Below, in pieces: positions 9,656-62,227 of a DNA stretch of 64,000 nt. The DNA is from Ostreococcus lucimarinus. Lineage: Eukaryota. The position numbers and the translations under genes were made by a program. Below the pieces are notes generated by a model, which was given only the letters and a program-made list of their open reading frames with translations, did no database searches and was not told the origin of the DNA. The stretch's first letter is position 1; each line of letters opens with the position of its first letter. The DNA lies in the NCBI GenBank assembly GCA_000092065.1, contig CP000591.1; one strand, given 5' to 3'.

Positions 9656-9973
<318 letters not shown>

Positions 9974-10059
9974 GCGTTTTTTTAAAACGCCGACCGACGT
10001 CTACGTACGCGCAAGCGAAACAAACTCAAGACGCGTCTCTCGACGCGTCTCGAAAACAC

Positions 10060-15022: not shown

Positions 15023-15181
15023 GCGCTCGCGTGTATTCTTTGTCTAATTGTTTGTCTATTGTTTCTATAGCTAGTCTACGTTGTCATGATTCTTGGTCGG
15101 GATCCCACTTTGAGCGCTCGCGTGTATTCTTTGTCTAATTGTTTGTCTATTGTTTCTATAGCTAGTCTACGTTGTCATGAT
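15000..15181. repeat. Perfect tandem duplication of 2 x 91 bp spanning the two convergent 3' ends
   Basis: Unit 15000..15090 is identical to 15091..15181. The unit runs from the last 7 codons plus stop of the methyltransferase (15020..15022) to the stop codon of the minus-strand pseudouridine synthase (15175..15177). It is AT-richer than its surroundings. Confidence 0.9.
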
Positions 15182-20444: not shown

Positions 20445-20802
20445 ATGGGGAACGACGACGTCACGGTGACGTTTAGTCACAACTGAGGTGCGTCGGCGCG
20501 TCACGACGGACGAAGGCTCGAGACGAGGGGAAAGATGGGCGACGCGTGGGTTTTGAGACTGACTGAACGACGCTCGACGCGCAGACGGAGGGATGCAAGA
20601 ATTCGAAGCCGCGAAGTCGGCGATTCTTAAGGTGAAACCCAGCGCGAATGTGATCGCGAATCGCGTGGACGCGTATCCGATCACCGTCAGGGTAAGCGTG
20701 GGCGAACGCGAAGTGTGGAGCGGGAGACAACAGCTGTTGTTCCGGAAAAATGGAAGACCGGCGATGAAGGATATCGAGGAAGCGATGCGAAAGCTCGGTT
20801 GA
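20445..20802 (+). CDS. SELW: Selenoprotein W-like (Rdx family) protein with in-frame UGA (Sec); two exons join(20445..20487,20585..20802)
   Basis: Exon 1 reads ATG...MGNDDVTVTFSHN-TGA-G and runs into a GTGCGT donor. The 97-nt intron 20488..20584 has the GACTGACTGAAC branch motif and a CGCGCAG acceptor. Exon 2 is the ORF-track ORF 20593..20802. The assembled 86-aa protein MGNDDVTVTFSHNUDGGMQEFEAAKSAILKVKP...VRVSVGEREVWSGRQQLLFRKNGRPAMKDIEEAMRKLG aligns with SelW (VxVxYCGGUGYG...FEVEV.GELVHSKK.G.G). A SECIS-like element lies about 55 nt past the stop. Confidence 0.55.
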
Positions 20803-23735: not shown

Positions 23736-26700
23736 TTACAACTTTGACTTCTTCCCGTCCTTTTCCTTCTTCTCCTTCTTCTCTTTCTTCTCTTTCTTCG
23801 CCTTCTTCGCCTTCTTCTCTTTCTTAAATTCATGCGTTTTACGCTTTTTGTCTTTCACCTCAGCCTCTGGCGCGTCTTCGTCCGCTTCGGAATCCTCGAA
23901 GACCACTTTTTTGCCTTGCGAGTCGCCGCCGCCTTGCTCCATCCAATCGATCGCCGTGTGATCGCTCGTGGAGTCGAGTGGTGAACTTATAGCTTCAGTT
24001 TCGATCAAATCATCTAGCCCTCTCGGATCAGATGCATTTTGAGCGCCGATACCCTTCTCCCGAAGCACTCGAAGCGTCTTTTGCATGTCAAATTCAGCTT
24101 CTCGTTGCGCTTTGCGCGCGGGCTGCAGCGCGAGCGGACTGTGCATCTCTTTCGCCTTTTCGCGCGATCCAACCACCATTCGTGATGAACGACTGAGCAT
24201 TTTTTGCTCAAATATCGGTAGAGCAAAGTCAAATCCAGAGTTTGGGCCGTGCTTTCGTACTCCATCAACCAAGGTGTCGGCAAGAAGGACGGCGTCACTC
24301 ATGGCTTGATTCGCACCTTGCGCCTTGAATGGAGTCATCGGGTGAGCGGCGTCACCAATCAACGTGACGCGACGCTTTGATTCATCAGTAGGGCGGAGTA
24401 ATACCGGATCGAGCAATTCCCTGTCGTACACTGGGTAGCCCGACATACAATCCAGCGGCGTGTTGCGAAGCAAATCTGGAACAGGGTCATGCCACTGCGC
24501 ACAACGCCGAACTATTTCCTCCTTTAGCGTCGTCGCATCTTTCGTGTATTGACGCGCTGTTTCTTCAGAGCATGGAAAAGATAGCTGCCACATAGTCGAA
24601 GTAGTCGTGAAGGGCATGGCATACAACCGTGTGGCGCCGTCGACCGTCTCAAAAATACGTCGATGCGCGAGCGGTACGTTCATTATCTTCTCATCCACGA
24701 TTCCTAGCACGACACACAATCCAACATAGTTCAGACGATCTCCTGGGAGGTCTAAATGACGTCGCACGGTTGAGAATATCCCGTCCGACCCCACGAGTAG
24801 AGCTCCATCGAGCTCGGTACCATCCGTGGACGCGACGGAGACTCCATTTTCGCGAGCCACAAAGCTCTTGAGCTTGCTATTCCAGCGAATAGTTCCCGGT
24901 TGCACAGCTTCGATGATGCGAGATCGAAGCACTTGACGGGGTATATGAATGAATCGTCCAGAATTTTGCACCTCGCGACGTTCACGCGACTTTGCTCCAA
25001 AAGCCTCTCCGAAAAATCCAATAATGTGCCCCTCTGCGTCAAAGGTGTAATGTGACGTCGAAGGAGCATCGTCTTGAGATATGTCAACGCCCATGGCTTG
25101 TATAGCGTCTTGGGCTTGCACAGTGAGCCCATATCCTTGAGCGCGCGCGTCAAAGCTTTCATCTGACTCCAACACGATGACATCGAATCCTTTGCTCTGC
25201 AATGCCACGGCTGCCGCCGCGCCTCCTATGCCCCCACCAGCGATTATAACTCGTCCACATTTCGAAACGTCGACGGGAGGACCGTATTTTTCATTGTTCG
25301 CGCCGTGTCGTTGCTGCTTGAGATGCTTCACCACACTATGCTGTCCAGCCGTCGTAAACGCCCACTCCAAATTGTTCAACTCTTCATCACTGAACTCATC
25401 CATGAGTCTCTTCACTGATCGAGCCAGCGCGGTAAACAACGCATCGTTTACTTGTCCGGAGTTTGCAAACGTCCAAGCGACGTTAACCAGATCTTGAGCG
25501 TTGAAATTATCCGCTTGGTGCTCGGCCGCGGATGCCAATGCGACAAAGAGAGCCTCGCTGAGTTGGCTTGCTTGGTCAAACGTCCAAACTATGTTGGCGA
25601 TATTCGGCGCATCTAAATCGTTCAGTCGATGATCCAATATCGATTTTCGCGCTGCAACAAAAAGTTTGGCATCATATCGACCGAGTTTTGCAAACGCCCA
25701 CGTGGTATTCACGAGGTCTTGGGTGTTGAAATCAGCCAAGCACCGTTCTGACAGGCTCGCCAACGAAGTGAATAACTTTTCGTCGTGATGACACGCCTTC
25801 CCGAAAGCCCAGGCGGTATTGGCAATATCCTGAGAATTAAACTCACTCGCATTCGCGGTCATTCTGCGCTCGATAGAACGACCGAACTTGGAAAAAAGTT
25901 CGGCGTCCAGATGCCCACATTTGGAAAAAGACCAAACCGTGTTCGTCAAGCCTTGCGCGTTCAAGGCGCTCAGGTGCCGCTCTGCGTGCTTGGCGAGCGT
26001 CGTAAACAATTTTGCGTCGTATTGTCCCGCCTTAGCGAACGCGTAGATGAGATTTGAAAAGTCTTGCGCGTTGAAATCATCCAAGCGTTCTTGCGCCTTC
26101 TGCGACATTGCGCGAAACAAACCAACGTCGACAAAGCCCGACTTTGCGAACCCCCAAGCCGTGTTCGACAAACCTTGCGTGTTGAACTCCCCCAAACGTC
26201 TCTCCACACACCGCGCCAGAGCTTTAAACAGCCTCGCGTCGGCGTGTCCCACCGAGGCGAACGCCCAGCAAGTATTCGTGAGCTCTTGCGAATTAAATCG
26301 CTCCGCGTGTCGCTCCGCCATCCTCGCCAACGCGCTAAACAATCGTTCACACTTGTAATCCGCCTTGGCGAACGCCCACGCAATGTTCGCCAACTCTTGC
26401 CCTCGATCGATCCCTCCCAAGTGTCGCTCTATCGCCTTCGCGAGCGCGGCGAACAACTCCTCGCTCCCTCCTCCCTTGGCCGCGCCGTGCGCCACGTTCG
26501 CCAGCTCCCGTCCCCCCATCTTCGATCGCTCATCCCTCACGAATTCGATCGTGTGCGCGATCAATCGTTCGTGCGCATCATTCATCCCGTCCCCATCGCT
26601 CGAGCTCGCCCGTTCACCGTCGCATCGCATCCGTCCGACGCTCGTCCACACCGCCGACAGGTGAATGTGATTCATCCGTCCCGCGCTCTCGTCTCGCAGC

Positions 26701-27008
26701 GCGTACACCTCGCGCAACGATCGCGCGTTCTTCACGTTCGCCGTCAGCAACGCCGGCGAGGGCGCGTTCCCGCGTCTCGCTCCTCCGCTCCCCCCCGTCG
26801 TCGTTCCCATCGTCGTCATCGCGTTCGTTTTCCTCGCCGCCGGCGCCGGCGTCGCGCCCAGTCCGCACGCCGCCCGCGCGTCCGCGCGCGACATCCCTCC
26901 GACCTCGAGCGCGCGCGCGCGCGCCTTCGCGCGCTCCTTCTTCCCCATCTTCTTTTTCTTCGCCGTCGCCGTCGTCGTCGCGTCGCCGTCGCCGTCGCCG
27001 TCGCCCAT
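23736..27008 (-). CDS. Octotricopeptide-repeat (OPR) protein fused to a C-terminal FAD-dependent monooxygenase domain, with a Lys/Glu-rich tail
   Basis: About 12 tandem repeats of roughly 38 aa of the type FNxQ[DE]LxNTxWAFAKxGxxDxxLFxALA form the N-terminal part. They are followed in the same uninterrupted frame by a Rossmann FAD motif (VIIAGGGIGGAAAAVALQSKGFDVIVLE), LVGSDGIFSTVRRHL and DAAHPMTPFKAQGANQAMSDA. The ORF-track start at 27017 is GTG, and the first ATG is at 27008. The tail KKEKKAKKAKKEKKEKKEKKEK is encoded by the polypyrimidine tract at 23749..23825. Confidence 0.65.
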   Translation of the reverse strand: MGDGDGDGDATTTATAKKKKMGKKERAKARARALEVGGMSRADARAACGLGATPAPAARKTNAMTTMGTTTGGSGGARRGNAPSPALLTANVKNARSLREVYALRDESAGRMNHIHLSAVWTSVGRMRCDGERASSSDGDGMNDAHERLIAHTIEFVRDERSKMGGRELANVAHGAAKGGGSEELFAALAKAIERHLGGIDRGQELANIAWAFAKADYKCERLFSALARMAERHAERFNSQELTNTCWAFASVGHADARLFKALARCVERRLGEFNTQGLSNTAWGFAKSGFVDVGLFRAMSQKAQERLDDFNAQDFSNLIYAFAKAGQYDAKLFTTLAKHAERHLSALNAQGLTNTVWSFSKCGHLDAELFSKFGRSIERRMTANASEFNSQDIANTAWAFGKACHHDEKLFTSLASLSERCLADFNTQDLVNTTWAFAKLGRYDAKLFVAARKSILDHRLNDLDAPNIANIVWTFDQASQLSEALFVALASAAEHQADNFNAQDLVNVAWTFANSGQVNDALFTALARSVKRLMDEFSDEELNNLEWAFTTAGQHSVVKHLKQQRHGANNEKYGPPVDVSKCGRVIIAGGGIGGAAAAVALQSKGFDVIVLESDESFDARAQGYGLTVQAQDAIQAMGVDISQDDAPSTSHYTFDAEGHIIGFFGEAFGAKSRERREVQNSGRFIHIPRQVLRSRIIEAVQPGTIRWNSKLKSFVARENGVSVASTDGTELDGALLVGSDGIFSTVRRHLDLPGDRLNYVGLCVVLGIVDEKIMNVPLAHRRIFETVDGATRLYAMPFTTTSTMWQLSFPCSEETARQYTKDATTLKEEIVRRCAQWHDPVPDLLRNTPLDCMSGYPVYDRELLDPVLLRPTDESKRRVTLIGDAAHPMTPFKAQGANQAMSDAVLLADTLVDGVRKHGPNSGFDFALPIFEQKMLSRSSRMVVGSREKAKEMHSPLALQPARKAQREAEFDMQKTLRVLREKGIGAQNASDPRGLDDLIETEAISSPLDSTSDHTAIDWMEQGGGDSQGKKVVFEDSEADEDAPEAEVKDKKRKTHEFKKEKKAKKAKKEKKEKKEKKEKDGKKSKL

Positions 27009-27046
27009 CGTCGCCACTGCGCGTCGCGCACTGCGCGTTCGGCGTC

Positions 27047-36186: not shown

Positions 36187-37841
36187 ATCGACCGTTGAAG
36201 AACGTGAAGTTTGTGGTGAAAGATATATTTGATATCGAGGGACGACGATGCGGGTTCGGGTCGCCGGCGTTTAAGCGGACGGGAGGGAAAGGCGGGACGG
36301 CGGGCGCGAAGCGACACGCGCGGTGCGTGCGAACGCTCCTGGAGGCGGGAGCGAGCGCGGTGGGGATGACGACCATGGATGAGCTGGCGTACGCGATTAA
36401 TGGGGAGAACGCACACTATGGAACGCCTATAAACCCGCGAGCGCGAGCGTTAGTGCCGGGAGGGTCGTCCTCGGGATCGGCGGTGGCGTGCGCGGCGGCG
36501 CTTCGAGGATGCGAATTCGCGCTCGGGACGGATACCGGGGGATCGGTGCGAGTGCCGGCGTCGTATTGTGGGGTTTACGGGATACGCACGAGTCATGGAT
36601 CAGTATCTATGCGTGGTGTGCAAGCTTTGGCTCCGAGTTTTGACACCGTGGGGTGGTTTGCGCGATCAATAGATGTCTTGCAGCGCGTGGGAGACGTGTT
36701 GTTGCCAGAGCCCGACAAGCACGCGCCGACGGAACCGAGCCGCTGGCTTTTGCTGGAAGACGCTGTGAGTGCGAAACGCTCTACACCACACTCGCAGTGT
36801 GCTGCGGTTGCCGCGGTGACGGCGCTCCACGAGATTGCGCCGGCGGATTTCAAGCGAATGAATCTCACAGAGCACTTGCTCGTCGGTTGCCCAAAGTTCC
36901 GGTCGCTCGTAAACGGTCGCGAAGACTACGGCTTGGACTGCCTCAGAGAGATGGTTCGCGTGCTCATGGGGGCGGAAATCTGGGAAAATCTGGGAAAATG
37001 GTACACTGAGGAAAAGCCAAAGCTCGGTGCCGCGGTCAAGGCGAGGATGGAAGCCGCGTCAAAGCTCGACGCGGACGAAGTCGAACGCCTCAAGGAAGTG
37101 CGAGAGGAAGTGCGAGAAGAAGTGGATCGCATATTAGACGGTGGCGCCATATTCATACTTCCCACGACGCCTGGCAAGGCCCCTAAACGTGGTCAAAGCG
37201 ATCAGGCGACCGAATCTTGGCGAAGAAAGTGTTTTGAGCTGCTGTGCATCGCGAGCCTGTGCGGTTTGCCGCAGGTGTCGATACCTCTCGAGGCTCCAAA
37301 CATCGAAGGTCCGCAAGGGCTGTCACTAATCGCTGGATACCAAATGGACAAAATGTTGATCGGAGCCGCTCGTCAAATCGTTCCTGCGCTCGTCGAGGCG
37401 TATCCAGATATCCTAGAAGCTGAGTTAGAGCGCCTGAATCCACCCGAGGCTCCTGGCGAATCCGAAAAGACCAAAGGAAATGAAGCCCTGAAGCAGGGCA
37501 AGTATCAAGACGCGATCGAATATTACTCGGTGGCGATTGGAAAGAATCCTAAGAGCAAGATTTTCGTAGCAAACAGAGCCATGGCGCACCTAAAGCTTGG
37601 GAACTACCAGCTCGCCGAAGATGACTGCACTGAAGCCATCAAGCTTGATGCGCGGTACGTGAAGGCGTACCTTCGCCGGGCGGCGGCGAGGTCGGTGGCG
37701 GGGAACTATCTCGAAGCATTGATGGATTACGAAGAAGCGTTACGCTTCGAGCCTAACAACTCGGACGCGAAGAGAGAAGTGTATAGAATGAAAAAAATCA
37801 TAGGAATGGCCGATCCAGGCATGGACGTTGGCGATATGTAG
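35922..37841 (+). CDS. Amidase-signature protein with three C-terminal TPR repeats and an N-terminal membrane anchor (Toc64/OEP64-like)
   Basis: An N-terminal hydrophobic segment (AVAAIVALAIELA) is followed by the amidase signature (GGSSSGSAVACAAALRGCEFALGTDTGGSVRVPASYCGVYGIRTSHG). The C-terminal TPR motifs are KGNEALKQGKYQDAIEYYSVAI..., NRAMAHLKLGNYQLAEDDCTEAIKLD and RRAAARSVAGNYLEALMDYEEAL. Poly-Thr tracts are encoded by (GAC)n repeats at about 36056..36075 and 36150..36185. An alternative ATG lies at 35967. Confidence 0.7.
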
Positions 37842-37875
37842 AGCTCGATACAGTCAGTTGCAATTAATAAGTGAA

Positions 37876-40105
37876 CTAATTCGTCGAACGTCTTGAGAAC
37901 GTTTTACTCGCTAATTCTGACAACCACGACTTCTTGATCGACGAAACGTCGCGCGCGTACATTTTATTCGTCCTAACTAACTCGTTGAAAAGAATCTGCG
38001 CCGCAAGAAAAATTGTCAGCGTGAAATAATTAATTGTAAGGAAATAATTACTCACCGTCTCTGGAGGCGATTGAAACATCACCGAGCTCGGGTGAATCGT
38101 TAGCTTCTGGCCCGTTGTAAAGACTTTGAACGATCCATCCATTTCCTTCGAAGCCGTATTCATGAAAAAGCCCGATACCAGCGATCGTAGCACGAGCGTG
38201 AAGTCGTCTTCACATGAAGTCAAATTAATTCCCTGCGACATTGCTGCTCGTGTCAATTGCTCGTTGATCTTGACCGCTTTTGTCATCGCTCGATGGTTAA
38301 TCTGGTGCTCTCTGCACCAATCGCGACTTCGCTTCGGACTGCAGGCCGAAAATTCGTTGAACACGCGCAGCAACGTCAAATGATCGCCCTCCTGAAATAA
38401 TTGTGTAAGAAAATATTAAATTATTTTTTCTTGGTCGACTCACCTTTCGCTTCAATTTGTGTCTTGCGACATTCTTTTGCCCGTCTGCCTCCCTGGAAAA
38501 CTGAAACACGCTATCTGTTGACAGCATGGACAAAACAGCGAGTGTTTCGATAGCGCACCCTTCGATTTCAGCGGCAATTACGCATCGTGCAGCCATGGGC
38601 TCGAGGGGAAACCTCGCCATTTTTTTTCCGACGTCGTTAAGCTTTCCATCGTCGTCTAAAGCGTCCAGCGAGTACAATAATTCAAGTGATCGTAATAACG
38701 CCTCTTTAGGCGGCGGATCGATGAAAGGAAACGACAAAATGTCGTCAACTTGCATTGCCTGCGAAATAAATAAATAATTCAGTTAATTTTTAATTGTCTC
38801 AGGAAAGCGCTCGATTCGGGCGCGACAGATCCTTACCTTTAGCTGAAGAACTACTCCACTTAAATTTGTACGCAGCAGTTCCGGTTTAACGTATTTTTCC
38901 AGGCTCGGCATGATTTCTTCGGTGTAGAGTCGAAAGCACTTACCAGGCGCTTCGCGCCCGGCTCTACCGGCGCGCTGTTGCGCCTGACTCTGCGCAATCG
39001 GGGTGACCAGGAGCTCGTCCACGCCGCTTCTTGGATGATGCGTTCGTAGTTTACTCAGTCCTGAATCCACAACGTACCGAATCCCATTGATCGTCAACGA
39101 TGTTTCGGCGATATTCGTCGCCAAGACGACTTTGCGCGTTCCCAGAGGCGTCGGCTCGAAGACCTTCATCTGCTCCTCCGGGGGCAGCGCAGCGAACAAG
39201 AGTACCACGTTGAGTTTCAGCACGTTTGAGGGAAGTTCAGACGCTTTCTCTCGCAACATCCTTCCCAACGACTCGATCTCCTCTTGACCAGTTAAGAATA
39301 CTAAGACATCTCCCGCCGCCTCTTCCTCGTTCACTTGAAGCACCGTCCACATCGCGGCGTCCAAGTAGTCCTCCTCCGGCTCCTCTGTGTAGAACATTTC
39401 GACGGGAAACGTGCGGCCACGGGAGTAGATTACGGGCGCACCATCGAAGAATTTACTAAAACTCGACGCTTCAAGCGTAGCAGACATGACGATGACGCGT
39501 AACGGTGGCAACGCGCGTCCGTACTGGTCCTCGCCGAGCGATTCGCGTCGACGACGTTGCACGCCTTTGATCGTGCCCAACAGGAAATCGGTCTGCAACG
39601 TGCGTTCGTGCGCTTCATCAATCATGATAACACCGTACTTTGACAGTAAAGGATCTCCGACCGCCTCTCGCAGGAGCATACCGTCGGTGAGAAACTTTAT
39701 GCGCGTCTCTTCGCTCGAGACATCTTCGAATCGAATGGCGTACCCCACGAGCGTGCCGTGCGCCGTACCGGTTTCATCGGCCACGCGACGCGACACGGAC
39801 ACTGCCGCCACCCGTCTCGGCTGTGTGACGCCTATCATCAACCCATTCGTCAGCGTCATGTCTTCGTACACGTATTGCGGAATTTGCGTCGTCTTCCCGC
39901 TTCCGGTTTCGCCGATGATGATGACGGTTTCGCTCTTCCTAATCTCCTCCATCAATCGATCCTTCGCGCGATATATCGGCAGTGACTTTCGCACTCGGTC
40001 GATTTCTTCTCTCTTCGCTCCCGTGGGTGCCCCGTTCGCCTTCCGCGCGTCGGACGTCGACGCGTCTCCGCCCCCGCGTTCGCGTCCCTCGCGAAGCGTC
40101 TCCAT
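37876..40105 (-). CDS. DEAH-box RNA helicase (DHX33/DHX35-like), four exons: complement join(38837..40105,38444..38758,38056..38391,37876..37995)
   Basis: Exon 1 has the helicase core (GETGSGKTTQIPQY, DEAHER, SATL, TNIAETSLTINGIRYVVD, QRAGRAGR). The three introns are 78, 52 and 60 nt, AT-rich (about 25% GC), with donors GTAAGG, GTGAGT and GTGAGT and acceptors CGCAG, TTTCAG and GCGCAG. Splicing restores the conserved EGDHLTLLRVF, HPSSVMF and ILFNELVRTNKMYARDV blocks that the ORF track splits into three ORFs. Confidence 0.8.
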
Positions 40106-40545
40106 GGCGTCACCCGCGCGTCTCGTCCAGCGCCTCGATCGCCGCCTTGACGTTCGCCGTCGCGCGTTTCTTATCGCTCAGAAAATACAAATCCCCACGT
40201 TTTTCGTACACCTGCTTTGTCGCGCGAGCCCGGTCGTCGTCGTCGTCGTCGTCGTCAGTCTCGCTCGTCGTCGTTCTCGGCGGTTGGTCCGTCGTCTCTT
40301 CACCGTCGCCGTCGGGTCGCACGCACCGCGCGCGCGGACGCTCGCGTCGACTTCGGCAGGCTTTGTAATTCGCTCAGCGCCACCTCGAGGGCGTCTCTCG
40401 ATTCCGTCGTCGTCGTCGTCGCTCGCGCGCGTTCGCTCGCCATGCGCTCGAGCCGCCGACGGGCGGACGCCTTGTGCGGCGACGGGCGACGGGCGAAGGG
40501 CGCGATCGATCGGTCTCGCGTCGCAACGCGGCGCGACGCGAAGGG

Positions 40546-43184: not shown

Positions 43185-44131
43185 CTAGAAAGACGGAACG
43201 CTCACGCGACCGGCGATGCGATCGAGATCCCGTTGACCGGACGGAGTGATGCGGCGACCACCCTTCGCATCCTTCTCGACGACACCGATGGATTCGAGCT
43301 GCTTGAGCACAGCGCGCGCGACGCTACCGGAACCGATTTGGTGGTGGTGACGACGAACGCCCTTGTTACCCGCACCGCAGTACGACTTGCGCAACGCACC
43401 CACACCCATGTTACCCTTCGTGTAGAGCTTGCGAGCGACCGAGGCAGCGCGAATGTAAAACCAATCCGGGTCGTACGGCGCGAGCTCCTTGTACGTCGCA
43501 GTCTTCACGGTGTCGACCCACTGCGGAACCTCCATCTGTTACGAGCGAACGAAATCATAGCCACGGTCAGTGTCAAATCACGATGGCGCTCTCGCCTCGG
43601 CCCCGACGCGCGCGCGCTCGCGAGGGTTGGCCTCTGAGCCACCGTCGGTCGATCGCGACGTCTCGGTCGCCTGCGTCGCGCGACGTCGCGCACGCGCGCC
43701 GACGAACGCGCACGCGATCGCATAAATGCGATCGCGCGCATCTCTCGTCGACGTCGCACGACGGCACGCGCGCCGTCGCCCTCACAGCGCCGGCCCCCGA
43801 CGCGCGCGGTGAAGCCCTAGCGCTCGACTCGACGCCCACGTCGCGCGCCTTCGTCGACGCCCAAACGCCCGCGCGTCGTCTCGCGCGACGACGATCGATG
43901 CGCACGAATACGTTCGCATTCGTCACCGCCGACGTCGTCGCGTTCGATCGTCCATCGCCGCGCCGTTCGCGCGCGCGCGTCGTCGCTCGATCGCGCCGCG
44001 ATGCGCGAGCGTCGTCGTGCGTTCGATTCTTCGCGTACCTTGCCGGTGGATCGGAAGTATTGCGCCAGAGCGATGACGAACTCCTGCGCGGGGACGTCCT
44101 TGACCGTTCTCGGGGCGTTCTTGGTGGCCAT
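43185..44131 (-). CDS. RPS19: 40S ribosomal protein S19 (eS19), two exons: complement join(44039..44131,43185..43535)
   Basis: Exon 1 encodes MATKNAPRTVKDVPAQEFVIALAQYFRSTGK, followed by a GTACGC donor. The 503-nt GC-rich intron has a CTGAC branch site about 33 nt before the CAG acceptor. Exon 2 is the ORF-track ORF 43185..43535 (MEVPQWVDTVKTATYKELAPYDPDWFYIRAASVARKLY...). The whole protein aligns with eS19. Confidence 0.85.
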
Positions 44132-44301: not shown

Positions 44302-44876
44302 ATGGCGAAGTCTACCAACCACACCGCGCACAACCAATCGTACAAGAACCACCGCAACGGTACGCACGACGCGCGACAAAGGCGCGGTTGCGAGGACACG
44401 GGACGACGCGCGCGAGGGCGACTTTGGGGAGACGTCGACGACGCGTGACGGCGCGGCGAGGGCGTCGAGCGCGATCGACGGCGAACGAAACGGACGATTG
44501 AAATGCTTGACGTCGATCGATGGGGGACGAACGGGCAAACGGCGAGAAGGACGGCGCGAACGGCGAACGAATCGAACGCCGCAAGACCCAGAACCAAACC
44601 CACCAAAACCGCGGCGCGAGAGACTGACTGAGTTGATTTTGCGCGCATCAGGTATCAAGAAGCCGAAGCGCGTTGGGAAGCCGTCCACGAAGGGGGTACG
44701 TATCGCCTTGCTTCGTCGTTCGCGCATCACGGTTCGAAACGCGCTCGCATCGACCCGCCCCGCGCAACCGATCGCTGACCATTTACGTCTCTTCCGCCTC
44801 GCAGATGGATCCGAAGTTCCTCAAGAACCAAAAGTTCGCCAAGAGAGGTAGCTTGAAGGCGGCCGGCAAGAAGTAA
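44302..44876 (+). CDS. RPL29: 60S ribosomal protein L29 (eL29), three exons: join(44302..44359,44652..44695,44805..44876)
   Basis: Exon 1 encodes MAKSTNHTAHNQSYKNHRNG, exon 2 IKKPKRVGKPSTKG and exon 3 MDPKFLKNQKFAKRGSLKAAGKK, matching the eL29 N-terminal region. Intron 1 (292 nt, GTACGC donor) ends ...GAGACTGACTGAGTTG...CATCAG. Intron 2 (109 nt, GTACGT donor) has a CGCTGACC branch site. The ORF track shows only the last exon inside ORF 44673..44876. Confidence 0.8.
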
Positions 44877-46339: not shown

Positions 46340-46761
46340 GTAGTTGAGGCGATTAGATTTAATCATGAGCTCACAAATTCGAATCAAAAAGTCAACGCGC
46401 TCGATTCAAGCCGTTCCGACAAACGGCGTCGAGAGTTTTGAGCGCGCGCCGTGCCTTCAATCATCCCTCGGCGCGGCGATGCGCTCCGAGACGAGTCCAC
46501 AAAGAATTTTGTTCGGCATACCGACGCATCCGCGCGAATTCATCCTCCATCACGTCACCGTACGACCTTCTCGCCGTCAACGCCTCTTCGCATCGCCGCA
46601 ACGCCCCGCCGAGCGCTCGCGCGAACGTCTCGTCGTCCAACACCTCCCCATCGCCGTCGCTTTCATCCGCACACGCCACGCCAGCGTTCACGAGCCCTCC
46701 TCGTTCGCTCTGCACCCCTCTTTCGACGGTCTCGTTCTCCACCTGCGCCCCTCTCGCGCGC

Positions 46762-46806
46762 GTCGTCTTCGTCGTCTTCGTCGTCTTCGTCGTCTTCGTC
46801 GTCTTC
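46762..46806. repeat. (GTCGTCTTC)5 minisatellite
   Basis: Five perfect copies of a 9-mer lie in the 1-kb spacer between Rpn13 and the carrier gene. Confidence 0.85.
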
Positions 46807-46992
46807 GTCCCGTCCACCGTCGTCGTCTCCGCTCTCACCGAGACGCCGTCGGCGTCGGCGTCGCGCATTTCGCGCCCCGATCGCGCGCGCCCCGTTCGCC
46901 CCGAACGCGCGCGTCGCCCTCCCGCGTCGCCCTCGCGCGCGTCGCCGCGCGTCCCGACGATTCGCGTCGCCCGCGTTGACTCGACGGTCCGT

Positions 46993-47048
46993 CCGAATGT
47001 CCGAATGTCCGAATGTCCGAATGTCCGAATGTCCGAATGTCCGAATGT
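46993..47048. repeat. (CCGAATGT)7 minisatellite
   Basis: Seven perfect copies of an 8-mer. Confidence 0.9.
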
Positions 47049-47163
47049 CCCAGGGTTGTCTTCTGTTGCCCGGCGCCGCGGCGACGGCGAAGCGCGACGC
47101 GCGATGCTGCGTCGACCGCGGCGGAAGGCGCGCGCGCGAGCGACGCGTCGCGACGAAGACGAC

Positions 47164-47187
47164 GATCTCGATCTCGATCTCGATCTC
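47164..47187. repeat. (GATCTC)4 minisatellite
   Basis: Four perfect hexamer copies. Confidence 0.8.
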
Positions 47188-47382
47188 GACCGAGGCGCGG
47201 TGCGCGTGCGACCGGCGCCGCGCGCGAGCGAAGACGACGAAGAATCCGCGCGCGCGCGACGGGCGTGGACGTTACGCGGCGACGAGGGGGGCGCGACGCG
47301 CGATGGACGGCGAACAGCGACGGGAGGACGCGAACGCGCGAACGATGGGACGCGGACGCGACATCGCGGATTCTTAGCCAAG

Positions 47383-49090
47383 ATGGAATCGACGAAGATG
47401 GACGCCGAGGCGCTGCGAGAGAAGCTCGTCGCGGTGCGAGAGAAGACGCAGGAAGCGATGAAGAAGATCGAGGTGCCCAAGGTGGAAGATTTGAGAATGC
47501 TCATAGAAGACATACGACAAGAGCAAACGGAAGCGAAATATCATCCAGATCGGCGAAGACTGGAGAGCGTGGCGGATTTTTTTGCGTACACGGAGGAAGA
47601 AGGTGATTCTCGCAATCGAATCGAATCGCAACGCGCGCGCGGCGACGCGACTTTGACGCTCCCGATGACTGACTGGTGACGACGCACGAACGTTCGAATG
47701 AGCAGGAAGAAAGTTTTTCGACGAAGTGGATCGATCGAAAAAGGGCAAGCTGACGTTGGATGATTTAAAGTTTGCGATGAAGAAGAGGAATTTGCCGCAG
47801 TCGTACGCAAAGTCATTCATGGAAAAGGCAAAGGGGCCCAAGATTTTCGCGCGAACGATCACGTGGGGCGATTTTCAAAGCGTGATGAACGAGCGAGAGT
47901 CGACTATGTTGCGTACGTTTAACTCGATGTCCGCCTCGCGGAACGGGCTGTTAAAGACGTCCGACGTAAAGCAAGTGCTCGAAGGTTTAGGTTTGGCCGC
48001 CACGGACGAAAACGCACGAGCAATGGTGCGGCATTTGCGAGGAAGTTCGGAGTATTCACGACAGGGCTACGTGACGTACGGTCAGTTTCGTAACTTTTTG
48101 ATGCTCATGCCCCACGAAGTTGCGCGCGAAACTGATCCGTCGAGATTATGGTTCGAGGCGGCGACGATTGTACAGTTCAGCGCTCCGCCAAGAACTGGTA
48201 GCATAGCTATGGCGGCTCGCGCGGCGTTCGCGGGTGGCCTAGCTTCAGCGACGACGACGAGTATGATGCATCCCTTAGATACGCTGAAGACTCGCTTACA
48301 AGCCGCAGTCGGGAAAGGGCCATCGCTCTTGGATTTGATCAAGAGTGTGCCAAAACTCGGTCCTCGGAAAATGTATCAAGGTATCATTCCATCGGTGACT
48401 GGAAACTTTGCCGGGCATGGCTTACGAACGGCTACGTACGAAGTCGTTTGCTTGGCTCTCGCACCGGCAGTCGCGCTTCCGATGATAACAGAGACTACGA
48501 TTCAAGGCGTGGGATCAGGTTTGGGAACGCTATTCGGAACATGCGTGCGGATCCCTTGTGAGGTTTTGAAGCAACGTTTACAAACGGATCAGTACCCCAA
48601 TGTCTTATCCGCATTTAAGGGTATCACATCGACGAATCCGCGTGCGCTGTACGCAGGAACAGCCGCTACGCTGACTCGGGAAATTCCATTTTACGTAACT
48701 GGTCTTATGATTTACGAAAACTTGAAAAAAGGCGCAGTCGCGCTCAAGGGGGGACGCGAACTCGAAAACTATCAGGTAATCATGGTGGGCGCGTGTGCTG
48801 GTGCGCTCGGATCCGTCATGGTGAATCCATTCGACGTTATGAAGACGCGCACGATGACGGGGTCGGTGCCACTCGGACAGTCACTTTGGGTGTCGATGGC
48901 ACACATCGTCAAAACTGAAGGACCACTCGCGCTGATGAAGGGTGCCATACCTCGCATGGCCTGGATCGCACCTCTCGGTGCGATGAACTTTGCGGGCTAC
49001 GAACTTGCAAAGAAGGCGATGAACGCGCCGGAGGGAGAAAAGAAGGCAGAAAAAGAAGAGTCGATGCGCACTGCGCCTCCGGAGGAGTAG
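47383..49090 (+). CDS. Calcium-binding mitochondrial carrier (EF-hand N-domain + three MCF repeats), two exons: join(47383..47602,47706..49090)
   Basis: Exon 1 (MESTKMDAEALREKL...FFAYTEEE) ends at a GGTGAT donor. The 103-nt intron has a GATGACTGACTGG branch motif and a GAGCAG acceptor. Exon 2 begins mid-EF-hand (RKFFDEVDRSKKGKLTLDDLKFAM) and carries MCF signatures (PLDTLKTRLQ, PCEVLKQRLQ, PFDVMKTRTM). Confidence 0.7.
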
Positions 49091-58994: not shown

Positions 58995-59078
58995 AACCGG
59001 GACGTGGGATTTTTACCGTATGGGTCACGACTCCTCGTTCGGGGGTACTCGTATGAAACGCCGTAATTTTATTGATGC

Positions 59079-59100
59079 TAGGGTTTAGAAATTAGGGTTT
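59079..59100. promoter_or_regulatory. Two adjacent telo-box motifs (TAGGGTTTAG aaat TAGGGTTT); a third copy lies at 59173..59180
   Basis: They are Arabidopsis-type telomere-repeat units (TTTAGGG) lying 110-210 nt upstream of the ATG at 59291. Confidence 0.5.
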
Positions 59101-59290
59101 ACACGTCAAAAATCGCCGAGGTTCGATTACAAACGTGTCAAAAACGTGGCTTTTCTGAAACTCGATTTTTGCTAGGGTTTAGCGACTCCGGTTTTCCGGC
59201 GGAATTGCGTGCGGGCGGTTGGGGGCGGCGGCGTCGTCACTCCTCGCCGACGTGTCGGCAAAAGACAGAGAACAGTTCGCCCCCGTCGAA

Positions 59291-59959
59291 ATGAGCGACG
59301 GTGCGATGCGCCCGTGGTTTCTTCGCGACGAGGATAGGCGCAGGAGCCTCGTATACGGCGTGGGTGCGGTCGCTTTCGCCCTCTTGGGGTTGGTCGTGAC
59401 TACTGGTTCGAGGACGGAGTATAAGGTGGTTGCGTACAAGCCAAGTCTTTATGAACACGTCGGGTCGCATCAAGTCAAAGCCCACTATGACATTTACCCG
59501 GATACACATGACATTCACCAGGCAGATCACCCTTCTGAGGATCCTGCAGATCCTGAAGAGGAACTAGTTTACAAATATAATGGTAAGCATGTTTCTTCAG
59601 CAAACGAGAATCGGATTCGGGCACTGTACTCGCCATCAGGCTCGTCCTTCATAGATGTGGTCAAACGGGAAGGTGTGGACGACGCTACCATTTTCGAGAC
59701 GTGTCTGTATCCAACAGTGACAGCTGAATTCAGGACGTACTACGGCCACGATCTGACAATCGAACCAGATACGACGAGCAAGGATCTAGGGAAGCCGGTG
59801 AACCAAGTCGAAGCACACCAATTTGGTTGCGTGTGGGAGAAGTTGTTGAATAAACTAGCGGAGTCGAACTGGAAATTCGTCACGTCCGAAACGATTATGA
59901 CTGAAAAGACGTTCTATGAGATGCATATGATTACGTTCTCACGAAAAAAGACTACGTAA
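59291..59959 (+). CDS. Hypothetical single-pass membrane protein (222 aa) in a low-GC gene
   Basis: The ORF-track start at 59219 is TTG, so the ATG at 59291 (MSDGAMRPWF) was used. There is one TM helix (LVYGVGAVAFALLGLVVTT). GC drops to about 50% across the body, against about 68% in the flanks. No family was recognised. Confidence 0.4.
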   Translation: MSDGAMRPWFLRDEDRRRSLVYGVGAVAFALLGLVVTTGSRTEYKVVAYKPSLYEHVGSHQVKAHYDIYPDTHDIHQADHPSEDPADPEEELVYKYNGKHVSSANENRIRALYSPSGSSFIDVVKREGVDDATIFETCLYPTVTAEFRTYYGHDLTIEPDTTSKDLGKPVNQVEAHQFGCVWEKLLNKLAESNWKFVTSETIMTEKTFYEMHMITFSRKKTT

Positions 59960-60134: not shown

Positions 60135-60664
60135 GAGACGAATCGGACCGCCCGTTTCGAATTTCTAGGAACCCCCTAGGGTTGTGACGGGGCGGTCCGT
60201 GTTTCGTCGTCAGTCTCGAAGGCGGGCGCCCCTCGGCGCGCGCGCGACGCGCGCGCGCCGTCTCTTCGTGACGCACATAGACGCATCATGGTGCGTGCGA
60301 CGCGCGACGGCGACGAGGCGACGCGCGCGAAATAGACGCTCGATGCGCGCGCGCGCGATCGGGCGTCGGCGCGCGATGGACGGCGCGGACGACGCGCGGA
60401 CGACGCGCGATGGCGATGGCTCTAGGGCTTGAAGCGCGATCGCGCGTTCGGGACGCGCGCGCGCGGAGAGAGACGCGCGAAGGGCGATCGCGCGTCGCGA
60501 GCGCGAGCGGTGATATCGTCGTCGGCGGCGGTGCGGTGCGAGCGGTGATGGGGGGGTCGACGGCGCGGGGAGCGCGGGGGAGACGGGACGACGCTGGCGC
60601 ACTAGGGTCGCGCGAGTGGATGATGAAAGAGAGACGACTGACGATCGAGCGACGACTTGGCGCG

Positions 60665-60886
60665 ATGCGAAAACAGCCTAAAGAAATTAGCGAAATTAAG
60701 GACTTCTTGCACACGGCGCGCCGGAAGGATGCGCGATCGGTGAAGATCAAGAAGACGGCGGGCGTGACCAAGTTCAAGGTGCGCTGCTCCAAGTACTTGT
60801 ACACGCTCTGCGTGAAGGACTCCGATAAGGCGTCCAAGCTCAAGCAGTCGTTGCCCCCGGGACTTCAAGTGATGGAGGTCGCTTAG
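60665..60886 (+). CDS. RPL38: 60S ribosomal protein L38 (eL38)
   Basis: [73 protein letters not shown] aligns over its whole length with eL38. It sits inside the ORF-track ORF 60410..60886. The body is lower in GC than the flanks. Confidence 0.8.
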
Positions 60887-61053: not shown

Positions 61054-62227
61054 TCACGCCACGACGCTGGTGCGACGCGGAAGGTTGAACATGAAATCGA
61101 CTTCGAGCTCGCCGTCTTCCGTCAAGTCGGCGCAATGCACGGCGTTGCGCTGTTTGTCCTCCCCGAAACGCGCGCGAAGGGATTCGGGACGTAACACGCG
61201 GGCAATTTCGGGGTCTCTCGGTCCGACGATTTCTCTGATGTCGTCCACGAGCGTCTCCGGGGACCTCAAGCGCGAGAGTTGCAGCGCCACGCAAGCGCCG
61301 CAACTCAGTTCATCGATCATCATCTTCACCTCTTCCTTGTCTAAAACGTCCACGTAAACGGCGTAAAATGCCTCTGCCTCGAGGCGCGTTAGCGCTAATG
61401 TTCGAGCCTGGATTAAATCCAGTCCTTTCTTCTCGCACAGGAAATCTAAAATCGCTCCGAGATGCGCCATACCGCTGGGTTTGACCACGACGAGCGACGA
61501 ATGCTCGGTGGGTGATTTCGACGACGATCCCGTCGCCAGCTCTCCTAACGCTCGAGCGTGCTCTTCGTCCATCGATCGCACCACATCGTTCGTGTGAGCG
61601 AATAATCTGGCCAAAATTGCATTCGCCTCGCATCCAATCGCGCGTATCGCGCACGACGTCCCAGACGCGAGCGCCCTCGCGTTCCTCGGCAGCGCCGTCT
61701 CGAGCTCTTCCAACCGACTCGTCCCGAACGCCACCGTCTTCATCTCTGCGATCGTCAACCCGTTCTCCTGCATCGCGTGCACGATTCTACCGATGCGGCA
61801 CACGTTTTCACTCGACACCAAGGCGAACGATTCCTCGCGCTTCGTCTTCATCGCCGTCGCCGTGCGTTCGTCCGCGTACCCGCGCACGGTCAACCGCCTC
61901 GACCAAATCGTCACCGTCGCGCCTATGAATAGCTCGTCCAGCGCGATCGGCGTTTCCGGCGCGCATTTCCGCAAAAATGCTTTCTTTCGTTTATCCTCAA
62001 TCTGCGCCGCGTCGTCGCGTCGCCTCCGTCAGTCATCGTCGCGCTCGCGCGCTCGCCTCCCACAGAGCACCAACCATCCATCCAGACGTCGCGCTTTACT
62101 CGCGCGCTCAACGCACCAATTCCACGTCGCCATCCTCGGGGTAATAAAACAACGTAAACGCTCGCTCGAAGTCTTGCGCGGGGTCCACCCAGACCGCCTG
62201 AAATCCAAGTCTGGACTCGGTGCGCAT
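61054..62227 (-). CDS. NME7-like protein (DM10 domain + nucleoside diphosphate kinase-like domains), two exons: complement join(62117..62227,61054..62001)
   Basis: Exon 1 encodes MRTESRLGFQAVWVDPAQDFERAFTLFYYPEDGDVEL, ending at a GTGCGT donor. The 115-nt intron has a GATGACTGACGG branch motif and a GGCGCAG acceptor. Exon 2 begins IEDKRKKAFLRKCAPETPIALDELFIGATVTIWSRRLTV, completing the DM10 domain (compare human NME7 ...LLFYPGDGSVEMHDVKNHRTFLKR...LEDLFIGNKVNVFSRQLV). NDK-like domains follow (VVVKPSGMAHLGAILDFL...LALTRLEAEAFYAVY). Confidence 0.65.

What the first reader, a model, noticed from the sequence alone, without database searches (positions are those of the whole stretch)
37876..40105. 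DEAH helicase gene is a compositional outlier with three AT-rich mini-introns, unlike the GC-rich introns elsewhere in the window
The helicase introns are 78, 52 and 60 nt and about 25% GC, with donors GTAAGG/GTGAGT and T-rich acceptors. The exons drift from about 60% GC at the 5' end to about 47% GC at the 3' end. Every other intron found (SelW, NME7, carrier, RPS19, RPL29 x2) is as GC-rich as the exons and uses GTGCGT/GTACGC/GTACGT donors. Two co-existing intron populations are reminiscent of the low-GC outlier regions described in Mamiellales genomes. Here the pattern is confined to one gene inside a high-GC neighbourhood. That raises the possibilities of a recent transfer, a relocated gene from a low-GC chromosome, or gene-specific mutational bias.
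Basis: seen in the sequence. Interest (0 to 1): 0.5.

Follow-up and report, generated by a model that had tools for sequence, protein, structure and literature searches.

The report
Conserved AT-rich mini-introns in helicase gene
A normal, vertically inherited RNA-helicase gene of a tiny green alga carries three very short AT-rich introns that are conserved in related species and belong to an intron type already described in this algal group, so the gene is neither foreign nor relocated.

Summary
The three introns are real. They lie on the minus strand: 78, 52 and 60 nt, all phase 0, GC 38.5%, 25% and 35%. Splicing them out gives a complete 679-aa DEAH helicase of the DHX33/Dhr2/DEAH10 type. 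The protein aligns without gaps at all three junctions to intronless orthologues.

The "compositional outlier" claim is weak. Nearly every gene in the window falls from about 68% GC at the 5' end to about 54-58% at the 3' end. The helicase ranks 3rd of 31 for GC and 6th of 31 for GC3. Only its last ~1 kb is the window's GC minimum.

All eight GC-rich introns I located lie within about 400 nt of their start codon. The helicase introns lie 1.27-2.05 kb downstream.

Three related species carry the same three introns at identical positions, with nearly identical lengths and AT-richness, in the same gene order. More distant relatives keep that gene order without these introns. Intron 1 shares position and phase with a Chlamydomonas intron. 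Recent transfer and relocation are therefore refuted.

The introns fit the sequence criteria of the small AT-rich "BOC1" introns of Mamiellophyceae. They also share a sense-strand AATTAATTATTT-like motif found nowhere else in the window. This is a new member of a known kind, of modest interest.

The parts
38837..40105 (-). Helicase exon 1 (ATG at 40105; 1269 nt; GC 56.4%). It encodes the DEAD/DEAH and Helicase_C domains, including GETGSGKT and DEAH.
38759..38836 (-). Intron 1: 78 nt, phase 0, GC 38.5%, GTAAGG...CGCAG. The position is ancient and is shared with the Chlamydomonas orthologue (VVLQLK|AM).
38444..38758 (-). Helicase exon 2 (315 nt, GC 48.3%; HA2 winged-helix and ratchet). The length is identical in L002, L003 and L004.
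38392..38443 (-). Intron 2: 52 nt, phase 0, GC 25%, GTGAGT...TCTTACACAATTATTTCAG. It has no counterpart in Chlamydomonas or Selaginella.
38056..38391 (-). Helicase exon 3 (336 nt, GC 50.3%). The length is identical in L002, L003 and L004.
37996..38055 (-). Intron 3: 60 nt, phase 0, GC 35%, GTGAGT...GCTGACAATTTTTCTTGCGGCGCAG. It contains an exact AATTAATTATTT. The orthologous introns are 60, 63 and 62 nt, so the segment is not a coding insert.
37876..37995 (-). Helicase exon 4 (120 nt including the TAG stop at 37878-37876; GC 42.5%; end of the OB fold).
40110..40443 (-). Small gene on the same strand directly upstream of the helicase. The best model gives 73 aa with one GC-rich GTGCGT intron at 40326-40215. 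Its stop codon lies 4 nt before the helicase ATG. It is conserved upstream of the helicase in all related loci and gives weak Prefoldin_2 / ASDURF-like matches.
43536..44038 (-). Comparison: RPS19 intron, 503 nt, GC 70%, donor GTACGC, 93 nt after the ATG.
44360..44651 (+). Comparison: RPL29 intron 1, 292 nt, GC 64%, donor GTACGC, 58 nt after the ATG.
44696..44804 (+). Comparison: RPL29 intron 2, 109 nt, GC 62%, donor GTACGT, 394 nt (genomic) after the ATG.
47603..47705 (+). Comparison: intron of the EF-hand mitochondrial carrier gene, 103 nt, GC 59%, donor GTGATT, 220 nt after the ATG. Its flanking exons are only 45-48% GC.
62002..62116 (-). Comparison: NME7 intron, 115 nt, GC 69%, donor GTGCGT, 111 nt after the ATG.
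60291..60676 (+). Comparison: RPL38 intron, 386 nt, GC 72%, donor GTGCGT, starting directly after the ATG.
20488..20584 (+). Comparison: intron of the SelW/Rdx-like gene, 97 nt, GC 65%, donor GTGCGT, 43 nt after the ATG.

Best explanation
The locus is an ordinary, vertically inherited nuclear gene for a core-only DEAH-box RNA helicase of the DHX33/Dhr2/DEAH10 type. The host is an unsequenced green-algal lineage that branches as sister to crown Mamiellales.

The gene carries three short, phase-0, AU-rich spliceosomal introns in its 3' 40%. These belong, by sequence criteria, to the small AT-rich intron class already described in Mamiellophyceae ("BOC1-type"). The long GC-rich introns near the 5' ends of neighbouring genes are the canonical class, with GTGCGT/GTACGY donors and CTGAC branch sites.

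The falling GC of the exons is the window-wide 5'->3' gradient, not a property of this gene.

Inferred mechanism: the mini-introns are recognised by intron definition. The sharp GC drop against the exons, together with a shared sense-strand AAUUAAUUAUUU-like element upstream of the 3' splice site, marks them for the spliceosome. This is comparable to UA-rich intron recognition in plants.

Shown: the intron positions, their conservation, gene order, phylogenetic placement, the composition statistics and the motif enrichment. Inferred: actual splicing in vivo and the role of the motif.
For: - Splicing restores a 2040-nt ORF carrying DEAD, Helicase_C, HA2_N, HA2_C and OB_NTP_bind.
- The protein aligns with no indel at any of the three junctions to the intronless orthologues P0007 (M. 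pusilla cluster) and P0008.
- The same three introns occur at identical positions in L002, L003 and L004/L005. Lengths are 78/79/76/75, 52/52/53/51 and 60/60/63/62 nt, and GC is 0.24-0.40. The length differences are not multiples of 3, and intron identity is 46-73%.
- Exons 2 and 3 have identical lengths in all four species.
- L25p-helicase-Toc64 gene order holds in L002-L008.
- The NJ tree places the protein as sister to clusters that include M. pusilla XP_003061534.1.
- Intron 1 matches a Chlamydomonas intron in position and phase.
- Window-wide gradient: mean GC per 300-nt bin from the ATG is 0.685, 0.624, 0.600, 0.575, 0.551, 0.539. The 200 nt upstream of start codons average 0.648 GC and the 80 nt downstream of stop codons average 0.44.
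- The motif AATTAATTATTT (up to 2 mismatches) hits only the three introns: 8 of 8 window hits (1.08 expected), 7 of 7 in L002, 8 of 8 in L003 and 6 of 9 in L004.
- AATTA/TAATT is 5-8 times more frequent than in dinucleotide shuffles in each species, and about 13 times denser than in the other AT-rich patches of the window.
- Published descriptions of the two intron classes match (PMC3879977, PMC3491373).
Against: - There is no RNA evidence. No transcript-derived protein spanning the junctions was found.
- BOC1 introns are defined partly by lying in the low-GC region of the big outlier chromosome. This 64-kb window (59.6% GC, about 30 intronless genes, canonical introns in neighbours) does not look like such a region, so class membership rests on sequence features only.
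- Intron 1 is 78 nt, just over the published 75-nt limit.
- BOC1 introns are reported to lack conserved motifs, whereas these introns share one.
- Intron GC and distance from the start codon are completely confounded in this window (Spearman rho = -0.88, n = 10). A pure position effect therefore cannot be separated from an intron-class effect.
Confidence: 0.8

Rival explanations
1. Pure position effect. In this genome all non-coding DNA near transcription starts is GC-rich and all non-coding DNA far downstream is AT-rich, through a mutational or gene-conversion gradient. The helicase introns are AT-rich only because they lie 1.3-2 kb from the start. There is no separate intron class.
For: - Intron GC correlates with distance from the ATG (rho = -0.88).
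- All eight GC-rich introns lie within about 400 nt of their ATG.
- Upstream 200-nt GC averages 0.648 and downstream 80-nt GC averages 0.44.
- GC and GC3 decline along nearly all genes.
Against: - The introns (25-38.5% GC) are well below the GC3 of their flanking exons (about 0.5-0.6) and below typical 3' flanks (0.44).
- They carry a specific motif that is about 13 times denser than in the other AT-rich patches and absent elsewhere in the window.
- Their length and AT-rich core are conserved across four species while the rest of each intron diverges.
- In relative L006 a helicase intron 1.7 kb from the ATG is 214 nt long with 53% GC.
Confidence: 0.25
2. The gene, or its 3' part, was recently acquired by horizontal transfer or relocated from a low-GC outlier chromosome and has kept the composition and intron type of its former location.
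For: - The 3' 1 kb is the GC minimum of the window.
- The intron type resembles BOC1 introns (PMC3879977).
Against: - Gene order with L25p and Toc64 is conserved in seven related loci, including intronless crown-Mamiellales-like ones.
- The tree is consistent with vertical descent.
- The same introns and the same composition occur in three related species at about 74% DNA identity.
- Intron 1 is shared with Chlamydomonas.
- The M. pusilla orthologue lies on a 1.12-Mb scaffold, too short to be the BOC1-bearing one (PMC3879977).
- Exon GC3 lies within the window's range.
Confidence: 0.03
3. The AT-rich segments are not introns. They would be frame-disrupting insertions in a pseudogene, or in-frame coding inserts.
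For: - Intron 3 (60 nt) has no in-frame stop, so it could be read through.
- No RNA data are available.
Against: - Introns 1 and 2 stop or shift the reading frame.
- GT...AG borders are conserved in four species.
- Orthologous lengths differ by non-multiples of 3.
- Exons are conserved at 74-87% identity and keep intact domains.
- Intronless orthologues have no insertion at these sites.
Confidence: 0.02

Closest known systems
BOC1 introns of Mamiellophyceae: the small AT-rich introns of the low-GC region of the big outlier chromosome (Derelle 2006 as cited there; Moreau 2012 PMC3491373; Verhelst 2013 PMC3879977)
   Same: They are short (52-78 nt here, against 40-65 or <75 nt) and AT-rich (25-38.5% GC, against <43%). 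They obey the GT-AG rule, show a sharp GC drop relative to their exons, and have positions well conserved between related species. They coexist with canonical GTGCGT/CTGAC introns in the same genome.
   Different: Here they are confined to one gene within 64 kb. That stretch is 59.6% GC, almost intron-free, and has canonical introns in neighbouring genes, so it is not a BOC1-like region. The host lineage lies outside crown Mamiellales. The three introns share a conserved AATTAATTATTT-like motif and plausible CTRAC branch sites, whereas BOC1 introns are reported to have no conserved motif. Intron 1 is 78 nt.
Canonical Mamiellophyceae introns (donor AG|GTGCGT, branch point NCTGAC; PMC3879977)
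   Same: The neighbouring genes' introns fit this class: RPS19, RPL29, RPL38, NME7, SelW-like, carrier and the small upstream gene. Orthologues of helicase introns 1 and 3 in L002-L004 use GTGCGT, GTACGG or GTGCGA donors, so the same spliceosome evidently handles both classes.
   Different: The helicase introns are 2-10 times shorter and 20-45 GC points lower. In this species they use GTAAGG/GTGAGT donors. Their branch-like motifs lie about 12-25 nt from the acceptor, not 43-52 nt.
DHX33 (animals) / Dhr2 (fungi) / DEAH10 (plants) nucleolar DEAH-box helicases
   Same: The domain set is the same (DEAD/DEAH, Helicase_C, HA2 winged-helix and ratchet, OB fold) with no long N-terminal extension. The best named hits are DEAH10 and Dhr2 at 46-51% identity.
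   Different: Subfamily orthology rests on best hits and an NJ tree only. The closest solved structures are DHX8/Prp22 helicase cores. No functional test was made.
UA-rich intron recognition in land plants (recalled from Goodall and Filipowicz 1989; not checked here)
   Same: Introns are distinguished from GC-richer exons by AU-richness and short U/A-rich elements rather than by strong consensus sites.
   Different: This is an analogy only. No protein factor or splicing assay is available for this alga.

Membership tests
DEAH/RHA RNA helicase (DHX33/Dhr2/DEAH10-like) | Helicase core with motif I (GxGKT) and motif II (DEAH), plus the Helicase_C domain | tested here: met
   GETGSGKT and DEAH are present in the translation. 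Pfam DEAD and Helicase_C score above their cut-offs.
DEAH/RHA RNA helicase (DHX33/Dhr2/DEAH10-like) | C-terminal HA2 winged-helix, ratchet and OB-fold domains | tested here: met
   HA2_N, HA2_C and OB_NTP_bind score above their cut-offs, but only after the three introns are removed.
DEAH/RHA RNA helicase (DHX33/Dhr2/DEAH10-like) | Orthology to the DHX33/Dhr2/DEAH10 subgroup rather than Prp2/16/22/43 | tested here: inconclusive
   The best named full-length hits are DEAH10 and Dhr2. No reciprocal or subfamily-wide phylogeny was made. PDB holds no DHX33 structure, and the best matches are DHX8 cores.
BOC1 introns (Verhelst 2013 definition) | Length <75 nt | tested here: inconclusive
   Introns 2 and 3 (52 and 60 nt) meet it. 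Intron 1 (78 nt; 75-79 nt in relatives) is marginally over.
BOC1 introns (Verhelst 2013 definition) | GC <43% | tested here: met
   GC is 38.5%, 25% and 35% here, and 23.5-40% in the three relatives.
BOC1 introns (Verhelst 2013 definition) | Located in the low-GC BOC1 region of the big outlier chromosome, among genes with many introns | tested here: not met
   As far as 64 kb shows, the window is 59.6% GC, about 30 neighbouring genes are intronless, and the other introns are canonical. The chromosome itself is unknown, so a position on a BOC flank cannot be excluded.
BOC1 introns (Verhelst 2013 definition) | No conserved sequence motif or branch point | tested here: not met
   A shared AATTAATTATTT-like motif is present in all three introns in four species. 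CTRAC-like motifs occur in introns 2 and 3.
Canonical Mamiellophyceae introns | Donor AG|GTGCGT and an NCTGAC branch point 43-52 nt upstream of the acceptor | tested here: not met
   Donors here are GTAAGG, GTGAGT and GTGAGT. Introns 2 and 3 are too short for a branch point at -43 to -52. The orthologous introns do use GTGCGT or GTACGG.
Introner elements (repeat introns of Micromonas) | Introns are copies of a repeated element and lie at novel positions | tested here: not met
   No repeat beyond the short AT motif links the three introns or matches elsewhere in the window. Intron 1 is at an ancient position. Genome-wide copy number could not be tested.

The most novel reading that the evidence does not exclude
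AU-rich mini-introns carrying a conserved sense-strand AAUUAAUUAUUU-like element form a distinct, selectively maintained intron class that exists outside any low-GC outlier region, in a lineage sister to crown Mamiellales. If so, the "BOC1-type" mode of intron recognition is older than, and independent of, the outlier chromosome. The shared element would be a functional intronic signal, for example a splicing enhancer or a site for regulated retention in this helicase pre-mRNA. This would run against the published view that such introns lack motifs and are restricted to BOC1.
Probability: 0.2. Interest if true: 0.45.

Novelty: new member of a known kind. Interest (0 to 1): 0.27.

Why it matters
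The result removes a candidate for horizontal transfer or relocation: the gene is resident and ordinary.

What remains is a clean comparative example of the small AT-rich intron type of Mamiellophyceae, seen in four species and seven syntenic loci. It sits in a normal GC-rich, nearly intron-free neighbourhood and carries a shared motif.

If this holds genome-wide, it would loosen the supposed tie between that intron type and the outlier chromosome. It would also give a concrete cis-element to test for how very short introns are recognised in GC-rich compact genomes.

The three introns lie in the 3' 40% of the gene. That is opposite to the 5' bias expected in intron-poor genomes, which hints at constraint or gain. 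Introns 2 and 3 have no counterpart in Chlamydomonas or Selaginella.

Tried and rejected
- I searched the protein database with the spliced C-terminal 285 aa to find transcript-derived proteins spanning the junctions, as a proxy for RNA-seq. The best hits were only 58-60% identical and none came from this lineage.
- An Rfam scan of 37700-40400 at E <= 1 gave no match, so the introns are not known snoRNA or other RNA hosts.
- A repeat search found no introner-like repeated element, only GTC microsatellites upstream.
- The look-up of the Chlorella sorokiniana orthologue locus failed because it is not on record.
- The scaffold from the same species (L001) has an N gap over exon 2 and intron 2, so it adds nothing there.
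- An automatic scan for further AT-rich mini-introns in the window and the loci had thresholds so strict that it missed introns 1 and 3. It gave no convincing extra candidate in the window. It did find a 67-nt, 40%-GC intron in the L006 Toc64 gene.
- The 38 AT-rich 50-nt patches of the window were checked against the gene map. Apart from the three introns, they lie at gene 3' ends, in intergenic DNA, or inside uninterrupted ORFs.
A 12-15-nt AT-only pattern would be swamped by AT-rich genomes.
Full report
**1. What is at the coordinates**

The gene lies on the minus strand. Joining 40105-38837, 38758-38444, 38391-38056 and 37995-37876 gives a 2040-nt ORF of 679 aa. It carries DEAD/DEAH (GETGSGKT, DEAH), Helicase_C, HA2_N, HA2_C and OB_NTP_bind.

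The removed segments are:

| Intron | Coordinates | Length | Donor | GC |
|---|---|---|---|---|
| 1 | 38836-38759 | 78 nt | GTAAGG | 38.5% |
| 2 | 38443-38392 | 52 nt | GTGAGT | 25% |
| 3 | 38055-37996 | 60 nt | GTGAGT | 35% |

All three are phase 0. Exon GC is 56.4, 48.3, 50.3 and 42.5%. Its "about 25% GC" holds only for intron 2.

**2. Are they introns?**

No RNA data could be found, but the comparative evidence is strong.

- The spliced protein aligns to intronless orthologues (the M. pusilla cluster P0007, and P0008) with no indel at any junction.
- Three related species have GT...AG segments at exactly the same three sites. These are L002, L003 and L004/L005, with 80-87% amino-acid identity in exon 1 and about 74% DNA identity between L002 and the window (the only pair measured at DNA level).
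- The segment lengths are 78/79/76/75, 52/52/53/51 and 60/60/63/62 nt, with GC 0.235-0.40.
- The length differences are not multiples of three, and intron identity is 46-73%.
- Exons 2 and 3 are exactly 315 and 336 nt in all four species.
- Introns 1 and 2 stop or shift the reading frame.

**3. Is the gene a compositional outlier?**

I mapped about 35 genes with Pfam. Nearly all of them lose GC from 5' to 3'.

- Mean GC per 300-nt bin from the ATG is 0.685, 0.624, 0.600, 0.575, 0.551, 0.539.
- Mean GC3 per bin is 0.80, 0.745, 0.708, 0.682, 0.638, 0.611.
- Upstream 200-nt segments average 0.648 GC, and 80-nt segments after stop codons average 0.44.
- Longer genes have lower GC (Spearman rho = -0.39 for GC and -0.47 for GC3).

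The helicase CDS has GC 0.534 (rank 3 of 31; z about -1.5) and GC3 0.623 (rank 6 of 31). Ariadne, DBR1, the carrier, Med12, FAST/FAD and the P-type ATPase are similar.

The gene span (GC 0.517) falls in the lowest 4.2% of equal-sized windows, and three other stretches are comparable. Only its 3' 961 nt (45.4% GC) is the window's minimum. That stretch includes 190 nt of intron and abuts the convergent 3' end of Toc64.

The gene is therefore the low end of a continuum, and the drift is not gene-specific. The same holds in L002-L004, where Med12 and Ariadne are as low as the helicase.

**4. The other introns**

| Gene | Coordinates | Length | GC | Donor | Distance from ATG |
|---|---|---|---|---|---|
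| SelW-like | 20488-20584 | 97 nt | 0.65 | GTGCGT | +43 |
| RPS19 | 44038-43536 | 503 nt | 0.70 | GTACGC | +93 |
| RPL29 intron 1 | 44360-44651 | 292 nt | 0.64 | GTACGC | +58 |
| RPL29 intron 2 | 44696-44804 | 109 nt | 0.62 | GTACGT | +394 |
| Carrier | 47603-47705 | 103 nt | 0.59 | GTGATT | +220 |
| NME7 | 62116-62002 | 115 nt | 0.69 | GTGCGT | +111 |
| RPL38 | 60291-60676 | 386 nt | 0.72 | GTGCGT | +3 |
| Small upstream gene | 40326-40215 | 112 nt | 0.68 | GTGCGT | about +117 |

- These introns are richer in GC than their own exons.
- Their tails carry CTGAC-type branch sites.
- They fit the published canonical Mamiellophyceae intron, with an AG|GTGCGT donor and an NCTGAC branch point (PMC3879977).

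The helicase introns do not overlap them in GC or length (Mann-Whitney p = 0.017). However, they are also the only introns far from a start codon (+1269, +1662, +2050). Class and position are therefore fully confounded in this window (rho = -0.88).

**5. Origin of the gene**

- The best named relatives are plant DEAH10 and fungal Dhr2 at 46-51% identity. Unnamed full-length single-ORF proteins reach 63-67% identity.
- One of those clusters contains Micromonas pusilla CCMP1545 XP_003061534.1.
- An NJ tree places the window protein as sister to these crown-Mamiellales-like clusters and inside the green algae.
- The gene order L25p-helicase-Toc64 (amidase + TPR) is kept in L002-L005 (with the introns), L007 and L008 (no introns), and L006. 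L006 has two different, canonical-type introns of 106 nt and 214 nt, the latter with GC 0.53.
- L008 is 69% GC with GC3 0.92, so it is not a low-GC outlier region.
- The M. pusilla orthologue lies on a 1,116,513-bp scaffold. That is shorter than the BOC1 interval given for either Micromonas strain (PMC3879977).

To date the introns, I mapped exon structures of the Selaginella orthologue (L009, 10 introns) and the Chlamydomonas orthologue (L010, 18 introns).

- Window intron 1 coincides in alignment column and phase with a Chlamydomonas intron (VVLQLK|AM).
- Introns 2 and 3 have no counterpart in either species.

Transfer and relocation are thus excluded. Intron 1 is ancient. Introns 2 and 3 are either gains in this lineage or losses elsewhere.

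**6. What kind of introns**

The literature describes Mamiellophyceae "BOC1 introns" as follows (PMC3491373, PMC3879977):

- small (40-65 nt, or <75 nt) and AT-rich (<43% GC);
- following the GT-AG rule, with no conserved motif;
- presumably recognised through the GC drop at the splice sites;
- restricted to the low-GC part of the big outlier chromosome.

The helicase introns meet the sequence criteria, with intron 1 three nucleotides too long. The 64-kb neighbourhood is not BOC1-like.

They also share a motif.

- AATTAATTATTT with up to 2 mismatches occurs 8 times in the window. All 8 hits are inside the three introns, and 6 of 8 are on the sense strand. 1.08 +/- 1.12 hits are expected by chance.
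- The same holds in the relatives: 7 of 7 hits in L002, 8 of 8 in L003 and 6 of 9 in L004.
- AATTA/TAATT pentamers are 5-8 times more frequent than in dinucleotide shuffles in each species. They are about 13 times denser than in the window's other AT-rich patches, which have the same GC.
- 17 of the window's 50 pentamer occurrences lie in this 2.2-kb gene.
- The motif block is the best-conserved part of each intron alignment.

I infer, but have not shown, that this is an RNA-level signal aiding definition of very short introns. No Rfam family matches, and there is no introner-like repeat.

**7. Verdict**

The gene is a resident DEAH helicase. Its introns are a new example of a known intron type, stable across at least four species. 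Two mildly novel aspects remain:

- They lie outside a BOC1-like region.
- They share a conserved motif.

A pure distance-from-start effect on intron composition cannot be excluded with this window alone. I give it about 0.25.

Noticed in passing
window 40110-40443 (-); L006 9337-9526; L007 7770-7952; L008 7740-7952: A small conserved ORF lies directly upstream of the helicase on the same strand. It is 60-73 aa with the pattern ...AEL.SLP..R.VY.KR.G.FF..DK.... In the window its stop codon is only 4 nt before the helicase ATG, and it contains a 112-nt GC-rich GTGCGT intron. Pfam gives weak sub-threshold matches to Prefoldin_2 (E = 2.5e-4 to 1.4e-3) and to the ASNSD1-uORF protein ASDURF (E = 0.016-0.036). 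This may be a conserved bicistronic microprotein + helicase locus.
   Followed up: partly
whole window, e.g. GC peaks at 3-4 kb, 6-7 kb, 11-12 kb, 22-23 kb, 40-41 kb, 53-54 kb, 56-59 kb, 63-64 kb: There is a strong polarity of composition along transcription units. Promoters and 5' coding regions are 65-80% GC, often with GTC/GAC microsatellites and low-complexity N-termini. 3' ends and regions downstream of stop codons are 35-45% GC. GC3 falls from about 0.80 to about 0.61 along genes. I did not look for a published description of this gradient.
   Followed up: partly
window 59060-59190 and 60175-60185; L006 ~9945-9980: Telomere-repeat-like TAGGGTTT (telo-box) motifs cluster between the gene at 59292-59956 and the RPL38 promoter. 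In L006 a (TTTAGGG)5 run sits inside the first intron of the helicase orthologue.
   Followed up: no
window 15026-15090 and 15117-15181: A 65-nt AT-rich segment (CTCGCGTGTATTCTTTGTCTAATTGTTTGTCTATTGTTTCTATAGCTAGTCTACGTTGTCATGAT) is duplicated exactly, 91 nt apart. It lies between the convergent 3' ends of a methyltransferase gene and a pseudouridine synthase gene.
   Followed up: no
window 20455-20790 (+): A SelW/Rdx-like gene has an in-frame TGA (probable selenocysteine) as the last codon before its 97-nt intron (…TVTFSHN-TGA-G|GTGCGT). I did not look for a SECIS element.
   Followed up: no
window 46700-47200: A GC-rich stretch upstream of the carrier gene holds several tandem repeats: (GTCGTCTTC)n, (GTCCGAAT)n and (CGATCT)n.
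   Followed up: no
L006 13744-13810 (-): In this more distant relative the Toc64 (amidase-TPR) orthologue contains a 67-nt intron with 40% GC and a GACTGAC branch motif, between exons of about 68% GC. Short introns with lower GC therefore also occur in ordinary GC-rich context in another lineage.
   Followed up: no
window 23739-27044 (-): One uninterrupted 1102-codon ORF combines a FAST-kinase-like domain (aa 218-275) with a FAD_binding_3 monooxygenase domain (aa 599-938). It is either a fusion protein or two adjacent genes with no stop codon between them.
   Followed up: no
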